Part shown: in pieces, positions 2,107-58,464 of the stretch
Position numbering within the stretch: the stretch's first letter is position 1
Layout of the letters: every line of letters begins with the position of its first letter
DNA from: a virus
Length of the DNA: 64,000 bases
IMG/VR virus record: IMGVR_UViG_3300034190_002630
Direction: 5' to 3' (one strand)
Program-made: the position numbers and the translations under genes
The notes under the pieces: generated by a model
What the model saw: only the letters and a program-made list of their open reading frames with translations
What the model was told of the DNA's origin: nothing
Databases searched by the model: none

Positions 2107-2136
2107 TTGACAATATATCAGATTACCTGATATTAT
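2107..2136 (+). promoter_or_regulatory. Sigma70-type early promoter
   Basis: TTGACA (2107-2112), 18-bp spacer, extended -10 TGaTATTAT; followed by GAGAGGTA ribosome site. Confidence 0.8.
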
Positions 2137-2169
2137 ATAATTAGATGTTGAAAAAGAGAGGTATATATT

Positions 2170-3330
2170 ATGTTAACACCTAAAAAACAAGAGTTCGTTA
2201 ATGCGATGTCTAAAGAATATGGCGAAGGTGCCGTAGTCTCTAGATTTGAGATTAATGAGTTCGCATCTAAGAATGGATTTAACAATCCTTCTTGGTTAAA
2301 GAAACCACAATACAAATGTGGTCACGGTAAGTATCAGTTACCTACCGAAGAATCAGAGGTTACTCAAGTTGTAAGTAAACCTATTCAACCTGTTCAGACA
2401 CCTGAACAGACTTCAGTAAATTTAATTGCTAATGCATTCGAAGTTCAAAACTTAGTTCCTTCAAAGTTCGAAGGTTTTGTTCCTTGGGGTCATTACAATA
2501 CTATCAAACAGATTTCTAAATCTGGTATGTTCTACCCAGTATTTGTTACTGGTCTATCTGGTAACGGTAAAACTTTGATGATCGAACAGATTCACGCTGA
2601 GTTAAAGAAAGAACTTATCAGAGTTAACATCACTATCGAAACAGACGAAGACGATTTACTTGGTGGTTTCAGACTTGTTAACGGTGAGACAAAGTTTGTA
2701 CCTGGGCCTGTTATCGATGCAATGGAAAGAGGTTGTACTCTTTTACTTGATGAGTGCGACTTAGGTTCAAATAAACTTATGTGTTTACAACCTGTCTTAG
2801 AAGGCAAGGGTGTTTATCTTAAAAAAGTAAACAAGTGGGTGACACCTAAACAAGGATTCAATGTGATGGCGACTGCCAACACTAAAGGTAAAGGTTCTGA
2901 AGACGGTAGATTTATCGGAACTAATGTTCTTAACGAAGCATTTCTAGAAAGATTTGCAATCACTATCGAGCAACCTTATGCAGACAAGAAAGTTGAAAGT
3001 AAGATTGTCATCGGTTCTATGAATAAGTATGGCAAAGTCGATGAGAAGTTTGCAGAAAACTTAGTGACTTGGGCAGAGGTTATTAGAAAAACCTTTTACG
3101 AAGGTGGAGTTGATGAGATCATCTCTACCAGAAGACTTGATCACGTTGTCAAGGCATATTCAATCTTCAAAGACAAAGTGAAAGCGATTGACCTTTGTGT
3201 TGCAAGATTTGATGATGACACCAAAGAGTCATTCTTAAATCTTTATTCAAAGATTGATGCTGGGGTGGATGTATCTGCCCCTGCCGTAGAGAATGAAGTC
3301 GAACAAGACGAAGTGGTCGATGAAGAATAA
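2170..3330 (+). CDS. cobS: CobS/MoxR-type AAA+ ATPase
   Basis: Walker A GLSGNGKT, Walker B LLLDE, ATANTKGKG, NEAFLERF, ISTRRL. Confidence 0.9.
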   Translation: MLTPKKQEFVNAMSKEYGEGAVVSRFEINEFASKNGFNNPSWLKKPQYKCGHGKYQLPTEESEVTQVVSKPIQPVQTPEQTSVNLIANAFEVQNLVPSKFEGFVPWGHYNTIKQISKSGMFYPVFVTGLSGNGKTLMIEQIHAELKKELIRVNITIETDEDDLLGGFRLVNGETKFVPGPVIDAMERGCTLLLDECDLGSNKLMCLQPVLEGKGVYLKKVNKWVTPKQGFNVMATANTKGKGSEDGRFIGTNVLNEAFLERFAITIEQPYADKKVESKIVIGSMNKYGKVDEKFAENLVTWAEVIRKTFYEGGVDEIISTRRLDHVVKAYSIFKDKVKAIDLCVARFDDDTKESFLNLYSKIDAGVDVSAPAVENEVEQDEVVDEE

Positions 3331-3349: not shown

Positions 3350-3381
3350 TTGACTTTTGAAAGTTAATTCCCATATAAATA
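3350..3381 (+). promoter_or_regulatory. Composite promoter: RpoH-like TTG-N17-CCCATAT overlapping T4 late box TATAAATA
   Basis: TTGACT 3350-3355, CCCATAT 3370-3376, TATAAATA 3374-3381, directly upstream of hsp20. Confidence 0.6.
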
Positions 3382-53430: not shown

Positions 53431-53487
53431 CCCCCTAGATATCAAAAAATCCTTATTTTTCGGGCATTTTTTAACCCAAATTAACCC

Positions 53488-53517
53488 TTGACAATATGGT
53501 CAAATACCTGTTATTCT
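53488..53517 (+). promoter_or_regulatory. Sigma70-type early promoter
   Basis: TTGACAATAT...TACCTGtTATTCT, near copy of the promoter at 2107; GAGAGGTA downstream. Confidence 0.75.
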
Positions 53518-53549
53518 GATAATAGATGAACAAAATGAGAGGTAATCAA

Positions 53550-53810
53550 ATGTCTATAGAAATCAAAAAAGGTGACCAAATTGTCGCACATTGGGGTGCC
53601 GGAAGACCTGAACAACGTGGAAAAGTTAAAGTTGTTCATGATGACGGTCATGTGATTGTACGTCTAAGAAATGGACGTATTTCAGAGGATCACTTAGTTC
53701 TTGCAAAAGAATTTATTAGTGATTACTTTTTCAAATGCAGTATCGGTTATCACCATATGCCGACTGCTGAGAAAATCGCAGTTAACTTATTTGATAAGGA
53801 GTATGCATAA
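53550..53810 (+). CDS. Hypothetical early protein
   Basis: ATG 53550 follows GAGAGGT. Confidence 0.65.
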   Translation: MSIEIKKGDQIVAHWGAGRPEQRGKVKVVHDDGHVIVRLRNGRISEDHLVLAKEFISDYFFKCSIGYHHMPTAEKIAVNLFDKEYA

Positions 53811-54364: not shown

Positions 54365-54607
54365 TTGAAACAATATAGAAAGAAACCAAACTTTGAAAGG
54401 ACTGAAGGTCTACACGTAATTGTTAGGGATAACAATGTAGATAAGGCCATGAGGAAGTTAAAAAGAATGGTTAAGAATGCTGGGATTCTACAAGAAATAA
54501 AAGAACGACAGTTTTTTCAAAAGCCATCAGAGAAAAAAAGACTTGCTAAAAAAGCAGGTAAAAAAAGGTGGTTAAAAAAAGTTGCACAAATGGAACATGA
54601 GTATTGA
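54365..54607 (+). CDS. rpsU: Ribosomal protein bS21
   Basis: V.VRDNNVDKAMRKLKR....GI..E.K.R.FF.KPSEKKR; AAGGAG RBS, TTG start. Confidence 0.9.
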   Translation: MKQYRKKPNFERTEGLHVIVRDNNVDKAMRKLKRMVKNAGILQEIKERQFFQKPSEKKRLAKKAGKKRWLKKVAQMEHEY

Positions 54608-56925: not shown

Positions 56926-56954
56926 TTGACATATATCTCATTTCGTGGTATTAT
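56926..56954 (+). promoter_or_regulatory. Sigma70-type early promoter
   Basis: TTGACA-17 bp-TATTAT with extended TG; TGAGAGGTA downstream. Confidence 0.8.
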
Positions 56955-56979
56955 ATAGTAAGAATGAGAGGTACTTATT

Positions 56980-57348
56980 ATGCAAACAGTAAATAAATCA
57001 GCAAACACAATCGAAGAAGGATTTGAGTTTCTAAAGGAAGCTGCAATCCAAGATTATAAAGAATTTATCAACAATGAAAATATGATAAAAGAATATGAAG
57101 ACAATATTCAATTAGAAGTTGGTGGTTCTAAATTTTTCAAAATCACTACAGGTAGATCAAATCAGAGATCAGTTTTTGGTTTCATTGTAAAAGAAGATAT
57201 GTTCACACCTGGTGGACAACCTCAGTTTAAGAAAGGTGATATTCTTAAAGCTGCATCATGGAAAGCACCTGCCAAGAACAGAGCAAGAGGTAATGTTCTT
57301 TCAGGTAATTATCCTATTCAATGGACTGGTCCTTTATATTTAAGTTAG
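56980..57348 (+). CDS. Conserved hypothetical early protein
   Basis: GDILKAASWKAPAKN.ARGN motif. Confidence 0.75.
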   Translation: MQTVNKSANTIEEGFEFLKEAAIQDYKEFINNENMIKEYEDNIQLEVGGSKFFKITTGRSNQRSVFGFIVKEDMFTPGGQPQFKKGDILKAASWKAPAKNRARGNVLSGNYPIQWTGPLYLS

Positions 57349-57357
57349 GAGGTGACT

Positions 57358-57441
57358 ATGATTAACGAAACTTTAACAGTATTTGTACATATCGGAATGA
57401 TAGGTTTTACATTATATTTTATAAAAGAGTTATTTTCCTAA
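57358..57441 (+). CDS. 27-aa hydrophobic peptide (not in ORF track)
   Basis: Strong AGGAGGT RBS; MINETLTVFVHIGMIGFTLYFIKELFS. Confidence 0.55.
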   Translation: MINETLTVFVHIGMIGFTLYFIKELFS

Positions 57442-57451
57442 TGAACAGTTT

Positions 57452-57590
57452 GACACTTGCGACCTCTCAACCTCATCATCACAATAGCAAGTGTCGTGGT
57501 CACTATAAATATATGATGAGACAATGTGAATGTGACCCAAAGGGGGTTAACAGTTTTTGTTTAACCCCCAACGCAAATAGGAGAGGTAAG
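57452..57590 (+). ncRNA. Candidate structured RNA / regulatory leader with internal late promoter
   Basis: Three stems (57452-57495, 57498-57537, 57542-57569), anti-SD ACCTCTC in loop 1, 8-nt loop-loop complementarity, TATAAATA at 57504-57511. Confidence 0.6.
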
Positions 57591-58043
57591 ATGAATACTG
57601 TAGATGTAGAGGGTGGCACTAAAAAACAAAGACGACTTGTTGAGAATTTAGTTAATTGGTGTTATAATAGATTGACACCAAGACACAGAACTATTCATGT
57701 TAATGTAGAATTGACTACAGATATCCCTATCGATGGTGAGTGTTCTAGGGGTGGAGAGAGAAACGAGTTTGATATTATAGTTTATAAGAAACTAAAAGAT
57801 GATGATTTTATTACAACAATACTACACGAGATGGTACATGTTATGCAGTATGCAACAGGTAAGATGAAAGATTTAAATAACGAAGGTTCCACAGTTTATT
57901 GGCGAGGATACAATTATTCTAATTATGAGTATCGAAGACAACCGTGGGAAAGACAAGCATATCGATATCAAGAAATATTATTAAGAGAGTGGAAAAAATA
58001 TGTGGGAAGCAATAAATGTTGCCGTTGTGTGTCTAGCACTTAA
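57591..58043 (+). CDS. SprT-like HExxH metallopeptidase-domain protein
   Basis: TILHEMVHVMQ, Y..QPWE.QAY; ATG 57591 follows GGAGAGGT. Confidence 0.75.
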   Translation: MNTVDVEGGTKKQRRLVENLVNWCYNRLTPRHRTIHVNVELTTDIPIDGECSRGGERNEFDIIVYKKLKDDDFITTILHEMVHVMQYATGKMKDLNNEGSTVYWRGYNYSNYEYRRQPWERQAYRYQEILLREWKKYVGSNKCCRCVSST

Positions 58044-58464
58044 CGTCTATCACGAGGCAAAAAATCAAGATATAGACGGCATGTATGCCGTTGCAGATGT
58101 GGTCATGAATAGAGTTGAGGACCACAGATACCCTAACACTGTATGTGGTGTTGTCAAACAAGGCCCAACTAGAGAGTCTTGGAAGACTAGAGAAACACCT
58201 GATCCGAATGATGCAGTATATTACCCAATAAAACATAGATGTCAATTTTCGTGGTATTGTGACGGAAAAGATGATACACCATATAATCCACAGGCATGGC
58301 GTATCGCAGAATCAATCGCAGAAACCACACTAAAATATGGAAGTTTAGTTAATACAATGGGTGCGACACATTATCATGCAGATTATGTACAACCATCATG
58401 GGCAGAAACTAAAACAAAAACAATGAAAGTTGGAAGACATATATTTTATAGGTGGGAAAAATGA
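58000..58464 (+). CDS. Cell wall hydrolase (SleB/Hydrolase_2)
   Basis: CLALNVYHEA, V.NRV, P.TVCGVV.Q, CQFSWYCDG, ATHYHA, G.HIFY. Confidence 0.92.
   Translation: MWEAINVAVVCLALNVYHEAKNQDIDGMYAVADVVMNRVEDHRYPNTVCGVVKQGPTRESWKTRETPDPNDAVYYPIKHRCQFSWYCDGKDDTPYNPQAWRIAESIAETTLKYGSLVNTMGATHYHADYVQPSWAETKTKTMKVGRHIFYRWEK

What the first reader, a model, noticed from the sequence alone, without database searches (positions are those of the whole stretch)
57452..57590. Structured RNA with anti-SD loop, loop-loop pairing and a built-in late promoter
Seen: perfect 9-bp stem GACACTTGC/GCAAGTGTC (57452-57460/57487-57495) with a 26-nt C/U/A loop. The loop holds ACCTCTC (57462-57468), exact complement of the downstream SD GAGAGGT (57581-57587), and CTCATCAT (57472-57479), exact complement of ATGATGAG (57513-57520) in the loop of stem 2 (GGTCAC/GTGACC). 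Stem 3 is GGGGGTTAA/TTAACCCCC. TATAAATA lies at 57504-57511, between anti-SD and SD. Established: T4 silences some late genes (e, soc, 49) on early read-through RNAs by SD-sequestering hairpins missing from late transcripts. Inference: a temporal translation switch for the peptidase/SleB operon, or a trans-acting RNA, since the same GAGAGGT precedes the early genes at 2170, 53550 and 56980.
Basis: partly seen in the sequence, partly recalled or inferred. Interest (0 to 1): 0.8.

Follow-up and report, generated by a model that had tools for sequence, protein, structure and literature searches.

The report
New structured RNA in marine myophages
The stretch is one copy of a previously undescribed, strongly conserved folded RNA of uncultured marine T4-like phages; one of its loops carries a ribosome-binding-site-complementary sequence that matches the leaders of the phage's own early genes, so it most likely regulates early-gene translation by base pairing.

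Summary
The element is real. It recurs in about 159 loci (53 distinct sequences) from viral and marine metagenome contigs, always at the same syntenic place in pelagimyophage-like genomes. Stems 1 and 2 covary strongly: 98% of cells are paired, all 15 pairs show double changes, and the covariation score is 1.06 against 0.22 shuffled. The loop motifs CCUCUC, CUCAUCAUCA, UAUAUNAUGA and (G/U)UGA are almost invariant. Loop-loop pairing is kept through at least six different registers. There is no Rfam match, and no copy in HTVC008M, Mosig, Melnitz, T4, P-SSM2 or the cellular genomes searched.

In most relatives the element ends in a strong intrinsic terminator. It sits about 10 nt behind the last ORF of a short early unit and has no promoter of its own, so it looks like a 3'UTR-type small RNA. 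The leader behind the unit's promoter is complementary to loop 1 (7-9 nt in 17 of 18 lineages). This match is better than the leader's match to the 16S anti-SD tail and better than the match of 432 other start regions.

TATAAATA, the missing U tract and the complementary downstream SD are features of the window's own clade, not of the family. This scan noted the same stretch once before, on this same genome only.

The parts
56926..56954 (+). sigma-70-type early promoter (TTGACA-17-TATTAT) that heads the short unit ending in the RNA
   Evidence: It matches 11 of 12 consensus positions. An equivalent promoter lies 165-740 nt upstream of the element in 18 lineages.
56965..56972 (+). leader/SD UGAGAGGU of the unit's first gene, an 8-nt perfect complement of loop-1 ACCUCUCA
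   Evidence: (duplex -13.6 kcal/mol)
56980..57348 (+). DUF7717 gene, first gene of the unit
   Evidence: PF24835, E 2e-7; phrog_5014
57358..57441 (+). 27-codon hydrophobic ORF, the constant upstream neighbour of the element in most groups; its stop codon lies 10 nt before stem 1
57447..57451 (+). AGUUU flank just 5' of stem 1; a purine(s)-then-(A/U)UU(U)G flank recurs across groups and resembles an RNase E site (inference)
   Evidence: alignment columns 1-4
57452..57495 (+). hairpin 1: a 9-bp stem (57452-60 with 57487-95) closing loop 1 (57461-86), which holds ACCUCUCA 57462-69 (anti-SD-like seed) and CUCAUCAU 57472-79 (pseudoknot strand)
57498..57537 (+). hairpin 2: a 6-bp stem (57498-503 with 57532-37) closing loop 2, which holds TATAAATA 57504-11 (clade-specific), AUGAUGAG 57513-20 (pseudoknot strand) and AAUGUGA 57523-29 (conserved)
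57542..57569 (+). hairpin 3: the counterpart of the family's intrinsic terminator, here without a U tract; its loop carries TTAACA 57547-52, followed 17 nt later by a degenerate -10 (AACGCA 57570-75)
57581..57593 (+). SD GAGAGGU (57581-87), a 7-nt complement of loop 1, and ATG 57591 of the SprT-like peptidase gene (57591-58043), which is followed by the SleB-type hydrolase gene (58000-58464)
   Evidence: (duplex -12.4 kcal/mol)
53536..53543 (+). second early leader with UGAGAGGU behind a near-identical promoter cassette; a candidate trans target
   Evidence: duplex -18.5 kcal/mol
2156..2162 (+). third early leader with GAGAGGU behind the same promoter cassette; a candidate trans target
   Evidence: duplex -18.8 kcal/mol

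Best explanation
Window 57447-57569 is one member of a new family of structured RNAs found in uncultured marine T4-like (pelagimyophage-like) phages. SHOWN: it has two hairpins whose stems covary, and their loops are nearly invariant and mutually complementary, which points to a pseudoknot. It always lies about 10 nt behind the last small ORF of a short early transcription unit (sigma-70-type promoter, leader, 1-3 small genes, RNA). It has no promoter of its own, and in most lineages it ends in a strong intrinsic terminator that often overlaps the next promoter. The 5' half of loop 1 (ACCUCUCA) does not take part in the loop-loop pairing in the window's own register (some groups draw on its last bases). 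It is complementary to the purine-rich SD region of the unit's own leader, and in the window also to two further early leaders and to the downstream peptidase SD. INFERRED: the RNA is a 3'UTR-type base-pairing regulator. Either as part of the full-length transcript (a 3' end folding back on its own 5' start region) or after release as a stable small RNA, its anti-SD-like loop occludes the SD of early leaders and so tunes or shuts off early-gene translation. Loop 2 resembles those leaders and may compete with them for loop 1. In the window's clade the terminator has lost its U tract, so the same loop can also act in cis on the peptidase SD in read-through transcripts.
For: No Rfam family matches. 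About 159 loci and 53 distinct cores carry the element, and all share the same synteny. Stem covariation is strong. The loop motif ACCTCTC persists even when the search pattern did not demand it. Loop-loop pairing of 7-10 nt holds in 33 of 36 distinct loop pairs, through registers CUCAUCAU, UCAACCUCAU, CUCUCAU, UCAUCAUAA, UCAUCAUCA and AUCAUCAU. Most members have a terminator hairpin of -14 to -22 kcal/mol with a U-rich tail. None of the lineages examined has a promoter less than 165 nt upstream. The unit leader's perfect complement to loop 1 averages 7.78 nt, against 4.80 for 432 other start regions, of which 3% reach 8 nt. The same leaders match the 16S anti-SD tail by only 4.94 nt; the loop match is longer in 18 of 18 leaders, against 36% of other start regions. 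Lineages with a (CU)n loop have (GA)n leaders. UGAGAGGT occurs on the plus strand of the window only at the two early leaders 53536 and 56965. On its own the element folds into the conserved stems.
Against: There are no expression data, so neither the RNA's ends nor its accumulation are known. Loop 1 resembles a generic anti-SD, so some complementarity to any SD is expected. Comparing each loop with its own leader against other lineages' leaders gives only a marginal signal (permutation p 0.03 and 0.09), because the loops are so similar. Lineages are phylogenetically related, so the 18 leaders are not independent. The extra invariant loop nucleotides (UAUAU, GUGA) suggest tertiary structure or a protein or ligand partner that simple seed pairing does not explain. 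One lineage (G, L124) has only a 5-nt leader match, and one (D) has weak loop-loop pairing. The direction of regulation (repression or activation) is unknown.
Confidence: 0.55

Rival explanations
1. Early read-through transcripts carry loop 1, which sequesters the peptidase/SleB SD. A late promoter (TATAAATA 57504-11) inside loop 2 gives transcripts that lack the anti-SD, so the operon is translated only late, as for T4 e, soc and 49.
For: The 7-nt complement ACCUCUC/GAGAGGU exists. The MFE of the read-through RNA (-41.4 kcal/mol) pairs exactly these two segments. Hairpin 3 has no U tract in this clade, so read-through is expected. Five of seven plus-strand TATAAATA copies in the window are intergenic and stand before genes, so the motif probably works as a late promoter in this phage. 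The -10 of the early promoter in hairpin 3 is degenerate in the window (AACGCA, against TATACT in L010 and TATAAT in L017).
Against: TATAAATA is not conserved outside the close clade, and its count in the window equals chance. In most relatives the element is followed by a terminator and by a downstream SD that does not match the loop. In groups G and I the downstream gene is a different one. The model therefore cannot explain why the RNA is conserved. It is not exclusive of the best explanation.
Confidence: 0.2
2. The RNA is a ligand- or protein-binding structured RNA. It could be a riboswitch-like attenuator that controls the terminator behind it, or a decoy or operator for a ribosomal or phage protein such as S1, the phage bS21 or the DUF7717 protein. 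On this view the SD complementarity is incidental.
For: The unpaired nucleotides are nearly invariant beyond what pairing needs (UAUAU, (G/U)UGA). The fold is pseudoknotted. A terminator follows directly. G-rich 5' arms of the terminator (AGAGGGG, GGGGGG) could pair with CCUCUC as an anti-terminator, but this was seen by eye only. A bS21 gene lies 3 kb upstream on the same strand.
Against: The terminator often overlaps a promoter for the next gene (TTGACA in the hairpin loop, TATAAT 17 nt later), so read-through control is not needed. Downstream genes differ between groups. HTVC008M and Mosig, both pelagimyophages (bS21 is reported as core to the group, PMC7029224), lack the RNA. The leader complementarity is specific and exceeds the anti-SD match.
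Confidence: 0.17
3. The element is a passive 3'-end structure. The hairpins only protect the early transcript from 3' exonucleases and form part of a terminator-promoter junction, with no regulatory pairing.
For: It sits at the 3' end of a unit, is followed by a terminator, and has stable stems.
Against: Protective hairpins do not need 20-nt loop sequences that stay invariant across lineages whose stems have changed completely. They also do not need loops complementary to each other and to the leader.
Confidence: 0.06
4. The region is coding, as the N-terminal part of ORF 57441-58043 or a small peptide on either strand.
For: An ORF is open from 57441, and ATG 57513 is in frame with the peptidase.
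Against: Homologues start at residue 1-2 of the 57591 protein. In L017 and other relatives the frame is closed or shifted, and indels are not multiples of three. Substitutions are compensatory in the stems.
Confidence: 0.02

Closest known systems
3'UTR-derived base-pairing small RNAs of bacteria (CpxQ, SroC, DapZ type) and C/U-rich seed sRNAs that target SD sequences (RsaE/RoxS type); from my own knowledge
   Same: It lies directly behind a stop codon on the same strand and has no own promoter. In most relatives it shares the operon's intrinsic terminator. It has a conserved single-stranded pyrimidine-rich seed complementary to SD regions, and a purine-then-UUU flank at the 5' side that looks like an RNase E site.
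   Different: It is phage-encoded, in lytic T4-like marine phages. The seed sits in a large hairpin loop that also forms a conserved loop-loop pseudoknot. The best-matching target is the leader of its own transcription unit. Nothing is known about a chaperone. There is no sequence or family relationship.
icaR mRNA of Staphylococcus aureus (a 3'UTR UCCCC motif pairs with the SD in the 5'UTR of the same mRNA) and the hok mRNA fold-back (fbi-tac) of type I toxin systems; from my own knowledge
   Same: A 3'-terminal element of an mRNA carries an anti-SD sequence complementary to the start region at the 5' end of the same transcript. In groups C and G the only gene of the unit encodes a small hydrophobic peptide, as in hok.
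   Different: Here the 3' element is a conserved two-hairpin pseudoknotted domain present across many lineages. In most groups the first gene is DUF7717, not the small peptide. No antisense partner RNA was seen. Cis pairing is not shown.
T4 late genes e, soc and 49: SD-sequestering hairpins on early read-through RNAs, absent from transcripts that start at the late promoter
   Same: In the window's clade an upstream segment is complementary to the SD of the next gene, and a TATAAATA lies between them.
   Different: In T4 the sequestering segment is a local, gene-specific hairpin. Here it is the loop of an independently conserved RNA that in most relatives is cut off from the downstream gene by a terminator and a promoter.
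Rfam families (release 15), including marine and phage motifs (IMES-1 to -4, PhotoRC, manA, wcaG, hammerhead, pistol, twister)
   Same: It is a metagenome-abundant marine structured RNA with covarying stems and conserved loops.
   Different: No model reaches even E = 0.1 on a 400-nt search. The only weak matches are chance box C/D snoRNA hits caused by UGAUGA.

Membership tests
Any Rfam 15 family | score at or above the family's gathering threshold | tested here: not met
   One search gave 0 matches in the whole window. In one search the best match was snoZ182 at 21 bits against a threshold of 80 (E 0.16).
T4-type temporal SD-sequestration switch (e, soc, 49) | an upstream segment complementary to the SD of the regulated gene on read-through RNA | tested here: met
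   In the window, ACCUCUC and GAGAGGU give a duplex of -12.4 kcal/mol, and the MFE of the read-through RNA pairs them. Among relatives the feature is met only in clades A, K and O.
T4-type temporal SD-sequestration switch (e, soc, 49) | a late promoter between the sequestering segment and the SD, conserved with the arrangement | tested here: inconclusive
   TATAAATA 57504-11 is present and intergenic. It is absent outside the close clade, and there are no transcript data.
3'UTR-derived small RNA | lies directly behind a stop codon on the same strand, with no promoter of its own | tested here: met
   The stop codon lies about 8-14 nt before stem 1 in the groups examined. None of the lineages examined has a sigma-70-like promoter closer than 165 nt. 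This was a consensus scan only.
3'UTR-derived small RNA | ends at an intrinsic terminator | tested here: inconclusive
   This is met in most relatives, where the hairpin is -14 to -22 kcal/mol with 4-7 U among the next 9 nt. It is not met in the window itself, where the tail is AACGCAAAU.
3'UTR-derived small RNA | a conserved single-stranded seed complementary to target start regions | tested here: met
   ACCUCUC is invariant or extended in all members. Its complement to unit leaders is 7-9 nt, against 4.8 nt for other start regions.
3'UTR-derived small RNA | a stable processed RNA species, RNase E processing, dependence on a chaperone | not testable with these tools
   No transcriptome data are held. 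Only the AGUUU-type flank is seen.
Riboswitch / transcription attenuator | sits in the 5' leader of a consistently associated gene, with an expression platform whose strands compete with the aptamer | tested here: not met
   Downstream genes differ between groups. In groups G, I, J and O the terminator overlaps a promoter for the next gene, and hairpin 3 of clade K and L017 carries one too. No systematic alternative pairing was tested beyond inspection by eye.
Hammerhead / box C/D k-turn RNAs (considered because of UGAUGAG) | full conserved core (CUGANGA...GAAA with three stems; or C box plus CUGA D box next to a terminal stem) | tested here: not met
   No Rfam hammerhead hit was found. The snoRNA hits are far below threshold. 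The core C3 and the GAAA are absent in the sequence.

The most novel reading that the evidence does not exclude
The RNA is a phage-made mimic of the ribosome's anti-Shine-Dalgarno tail. It would selectively capture a private class of early leaders (UGAGAGGU or (GA)n) that match it better than they match 16S rRNA. This would give these phages an RNA-based early-to-late translational shut-off, or a fold-back autoregulation of the unit that encodes it, possibly working together with the phage-encoded ribosomal protein bS21. That would be a new way for a lytic phage to time translation.
Probability: 0.12. Interest if true: 0.85.

Novelty: new variant of a known kind. Interest (0 to 1): 0.66.

Why it matters
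Pelagimyophage-like viruses infect some of the most abundant bacteria in the sea. The one comparative study I found states that no riboswitch or regulatory RNA was detected in them (PMC7029224). This work defines a new and widespread RNA motif with unusually clean covariation. The motif has a defined genomic grammar: early promoter, matching leader, small genes, RNA, then a terminator overlapping the next promoter. It also comes with a concrete pairing hypothesis that can be tested with reporters. If the pairing is functional, it would be an example of RNA-based temporal control of translation in a lytic phage, analogous in purpose to T4 RegA/RegB but built from RNA. The covariance model could be used to annotate the motif in marine viromes and to look for it in metatranscriptomes.

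Tried and rejected
- Rfam gave nothing, at gathering thresholds on the whole window and in a permissive search of 400 nt.
- I considered hammerhead and box C/D k-turn readings because of UGAUGAG and dropped both, because the cores are incomplete.
- blastn of the region and of two other family variants against 50,697 phage records found no isolate with the element.
- Covariance-model searches of HTVC008M, Mosig, Melnitz, T4 and P-SSM2 were negative.
- The nearest held virus record, G001, does not cover the region.
None of the first 80 passed the model.
- Four cellular genomes and 151 alphaproteobacterial genomes gave one hit, which lies inside a coding region and is a false positive.
- Plain MAFFT alignments did not put the stems in register. 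I therefore seeded a model from two sequences and re-aligned by model. Those alignments are fitted to the structure, which inflates pair counts somewhat. RNAalifold and per-sequence constrained folds give the same picture.
- A fixed-column pseudoknot count was not run, because the pairing register shifts between groups. I measured loop complementarity per sequence instead.
- The first version of the leader test cut leaders at internal ATGs and is superseded.
- The coding hypothesis for 57441-57590 was rejected.
- TATAAATA as a conserved feature of the family was rejected.

Full report
OBSERVATION.
- Stem 1 is 57452-60 paired with 57487-95 and closes a 26-nt loop.
- That loop carries ACCTCTC (57462-68) and CTCATCAT (57472-79).
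- Stem 2 is 57498-503 paired with 57532-37. Its loop carries TATAAATA (57504-11) and ATGATGAG (57513-20).
- Stem 3 is 57542-50 paired with 57561-69.
- The SD GAGAGGT lies at 57581-87.

The ORF listed from 57441 is not the gene. All 63 related loci align from residue 1-2 of the protein that starts at ATG 57591. That gene encodes a small SprT-like metallopeptidase and is followed by a SleB-type cell-wall hydrolase gene. By itself the window sequence is only moderately unusual, with a fold z-score of -2.4. TATAAATA is no more frequent in the window than chance.

THE ELEMENT IS A CONSERVED RNA. The window belongs to a pelagimyophage-like T4-type phage; the nearest isolates are Mosig and Melnitz, but only distantly. 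Upstream of peptidase homologues of 48-99% identity the same element recurs. Pattern scans of IMG/VR and of marine metagenomes brought in many more copies, including copies found with a pattern that did not demand the CCTCTC motif. In all there are about 159 loci with 53 distinct core sequences, which I sorted into groups A to O. The stems differ completely between groups. For example, stem 1 reads GACACTTGC, TGTCCTC, GGGTTATGC, GATTCGGTTAGC or TTTGCGGTGCA, each with its exact complement.

On a model-fitted alignment of 47 sequences:
- 98.4% of cells are paired, against 55.9% shuffled.
- All 15 pairs show changes on both sides.
- The covariation score is 1.059, against 0.220 for shuffles and at most 0.126 with partners slid (a smaller set).
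- RNAalifold predicts the same two helices.

By contrast the loops are nearly invariant: CCUCUC, then CUCAUCAUCA in loop 1, and UAUAU-N-AUGA and (G/U)UGA in loop 2. No Rfam family matches. The region is not coding: frames and indels are not conserved, and substitutions are compensatory.

LOOP-LOOP PAIRING. In 33 of 36 distinct loop pairs, the two loops can form 7-10 consecutive Watson-Crick pairs, against about 5-6 for dinucleotide shuffles of loop 2. Per-sequence p values are 0.003-0.3, because the two loops have complementary base composition. More telling, the register changes in a compensatory way:
- CUCAUCAU:AUGAUGAG in groups A, B, C and G
- UCAACCUCAU:AUGAGGUUGA in E and F
- CUCUCAU:AUGAGAG in H
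- UCAUCAUAA:UUAUGAUGA in J
- UCAUCAUCA:UGAUGAUGA in M
- AUCAUCAU:AUGAUGAU in N

I regard the pseudoknot as likely but not proven. Group D and two H variants have only 5-6 nt.

GENOMIC GRAMMAR. In most groups the neighbourhood is syntenic: RNase H, DUF6433, 2OG-oxygenase(s), DUF7717, a small hydrophobic ORF, the element, zero to two small genes, the peptidase, often the SleB-type hydrolase, and a further conserved gene. In groups G and I the element sits between the small ORF and the next gene (DUF7717 in G). In most groups the constant upstream neighbour is the small hydrophobic ORF, whose stop codon lies about 8-14 nt before stem 1. In group M the element directly follows the DUF7717 gene instead. 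The flank just 5' of the stem is a purine(s)-then-(A/U)UU(U)G motif. This resembles an RNase E site, which is an inference from my own knowledge. None of the lineages examined has a sigma-70-like promoter closer than 165 nt.

Behind stem 2, most members carry a strong hairpin (-14 to -22 kcal/mol) followed by a U-rich tail, which is a canonical intrinsic terminator. In several groups the loop of that hairpin holds TTGACA, and a TATAAT-like hexamer follows 17 nt later, so the terminator overlaps the promoter of the next unit. The element is therefore the 3' end of a short early transcription unit, not the leader of the downstream gene. The window's clade (A) and clades K and L keep the hairpin but have no contiguous U tract. 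In the window the -10 equivalent is also degenerate: AACGCA, against TATACT in L010 and TATAAT in L017.

COMPLEMENTARITY TO EARLY LEADERS. For 18 lineages I used a blind rule: take the nearest upstream sigma-70-like promoter (165-740 nt upstream) and the 40 nt behind its -10.
- These leaders have a perfect complement to loop 1 of 7-9 nt in 17 of 18 lineages (mean 7.78).
- For 432 other start regions in the same contigs the mean is 4.80; 10% reach 7 nt and 3% reach 8 nt.
- The same leaders match a canonical alphaproteobacterial 16S anti-SD tail (a 15-nt motif typed from my own knowledge) by only 4.94 nt. The loop match is longer in 18 of 18 leaders.
- Other start regions match loop and tail equally (4.80 and 4.83).

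The matching register differs by group: UGAGAGGU in A, AUGAGAGG or UGAUGAGA in B, GAGAGGUC/GAGAGGUU in F and H, AUGAGGUU in G, and AUGAUGAGG in M. Lineages whose loop is extended to (CU)n (I, J, O) have (GA)n leaders. Each loop pairs only marginally better with its own leader than with leaders of other lineages (permutation p 0.03 and 0.09), as expected when the loops are so alike, and the lineages are not independent.

In the window, GAGAGGT occurs five times on the plus strand. Four of these are SD positions (2156, 53537, 56966, 57581), and three stand behind near-identical promoter cassettes. UGAGAGGT occurs on the plus strand only at 53536 and 56965. Predicted duplexes of loop 1 with these leaders are -13.6 to -18.8 kcal/mol.

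MECHANISM. The best-supported reading is a 3'UTR-type base-pairing RNA whose anti-SD-like loop addresses the start regions of early leaders, first of all that of its own unit. It could act as a fold-back within the full-length transcript, or in trans after release. Loop 2 resembles the leaders and may compete with them for loop 1. What is shown: the fold, the loop conservation, the position, the terminators and the complementarity. What is inferred: the pairing in vivo, the processing and the direction of regulation.

Here the U tract is missing, the downstream SD is complementary, and the read-through MFE pairs the two (-41.4 against -36.2 kcal/mol for the conserved fold without pseudoknot terms). 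TATAAATA is probably a genuine late-promoter motif in this phage, because 5 of 7 plus-strand copies are intergenic. None of this is conserved in the family.

A ligand- or protein-binding role cannot be excluded, because extra loop nucleotides are invariant. However, the terminator-promoter overlap and the varying downstream genes argue against a classical riboswitch. A phage bS21 gene lies 3 kb upstream. The pelagimyophages HTVC008M and Mosig (bS21 is reported as core to the group, PMC7029224) lack the RNA, so there is no strict link.

DISTRIBUTION AND NOVELTY. The model finds exactly one copy in the window and one in a 148-kb relative. It finds none in HTVC008M, Mosig, Melnitz, T4 or P-SSM2, and none in the cellular genomes searched. 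These were samples, so this is not proof of absence. The comparative paper on pelagimyophages reports that a riboswitch search found nothing in these phages (PMC7029224). Literature searches for phage small RNAs with anti-SD features returned nothing like it. I therefore class it as a new RNA family of a known general kind, a base-pairing regulatory RNA, with an unusual architecture.

Another note (e1-5837102) is the same stretch read again. The scan has not noted this RNA on other DNA.

Noticed in passing
window 54365-54607 (+): There is a phage-encoded ribosomal protein bS21 gene (PF01165, E 4e-17; phrog_21469). It lies in the same plus-strand early cluster, 3 kb upstream of the RNA. S21 genes are also present in related loci (L071, L076).
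   Followed up: partly
window 2107-2175, 53487-53555, 56926-56985: Three near-identical early cassettes are present. Each has TTGACA, a 17-18 nt spacer, a TATAAT-like hexamer and a short leader ending in (U)GAGAGGUA before the ATG. Two are preceded by a short palindrome or an AACCC repeat.
   Followed up: partly
window 3374, 27209, 30254, 31573 (+): Intergenic TATAAATA copies stand 15-60 nt before gene starts and are probably T4-type late promoters. The one at 3374 follows a TTGACT about 19 nt upstream, giving a possible dual early/late promoter.
   Followed up: partly
L091:14060-14110, L298, L302, L392, L142 (relatives): The intrinsic terminator of the RNA overlaps the next promoter. TTGACA lies in the terminator loop and TATAAT/TATAGT 17 nt later, directly after the U tract. 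This is a compact terminator-promoter junction that recurs in several groups.
   Followed up: partly
L091, L098, L106, L109 (group G), just 3' of stem 1: The 3' strand of stem 1 (CGAAUCAC) can instead pair with GUGAUUCG a few bases downstream. This gives an alternative hairpin that excludes part of stem 1. L106 keeps it through an A-U to G-U change. It may be a conformational switch or simply a shorter stem 1.
   Followed up: no
window 57523-57537 and relatives: The conserved (G/U)UGA in loop 2 repeats the first bases of the 3' strand of stem 2 (GUGAAUGUGACC). The 5' strand UCAC could therefore pair with either copy, giving a slipped-helix alternative. In group B this forms a second inner helix (AUCAC/GUGAU).
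   Followed up: no
window 58000-58043: The SleB-type hydrolase ORF overlaps the end of the peptidase gene by 44 nt if it starts at ATG 58000. The peptidase-hydrolase pair is conserved in groups A, B, C and G.
   Followed up: no
relatives L086, L091, L106, L018, L068 (ORF just upstream of the element): The small hydrophobic ORFs upstream of the RNA share a motif around (A/V)VG(S/A)IE(D/G), so they appear to form a family of 45-70 aa membrane proteins. The window's 27-aa ORF is a much shorter version.
   Followed up: no
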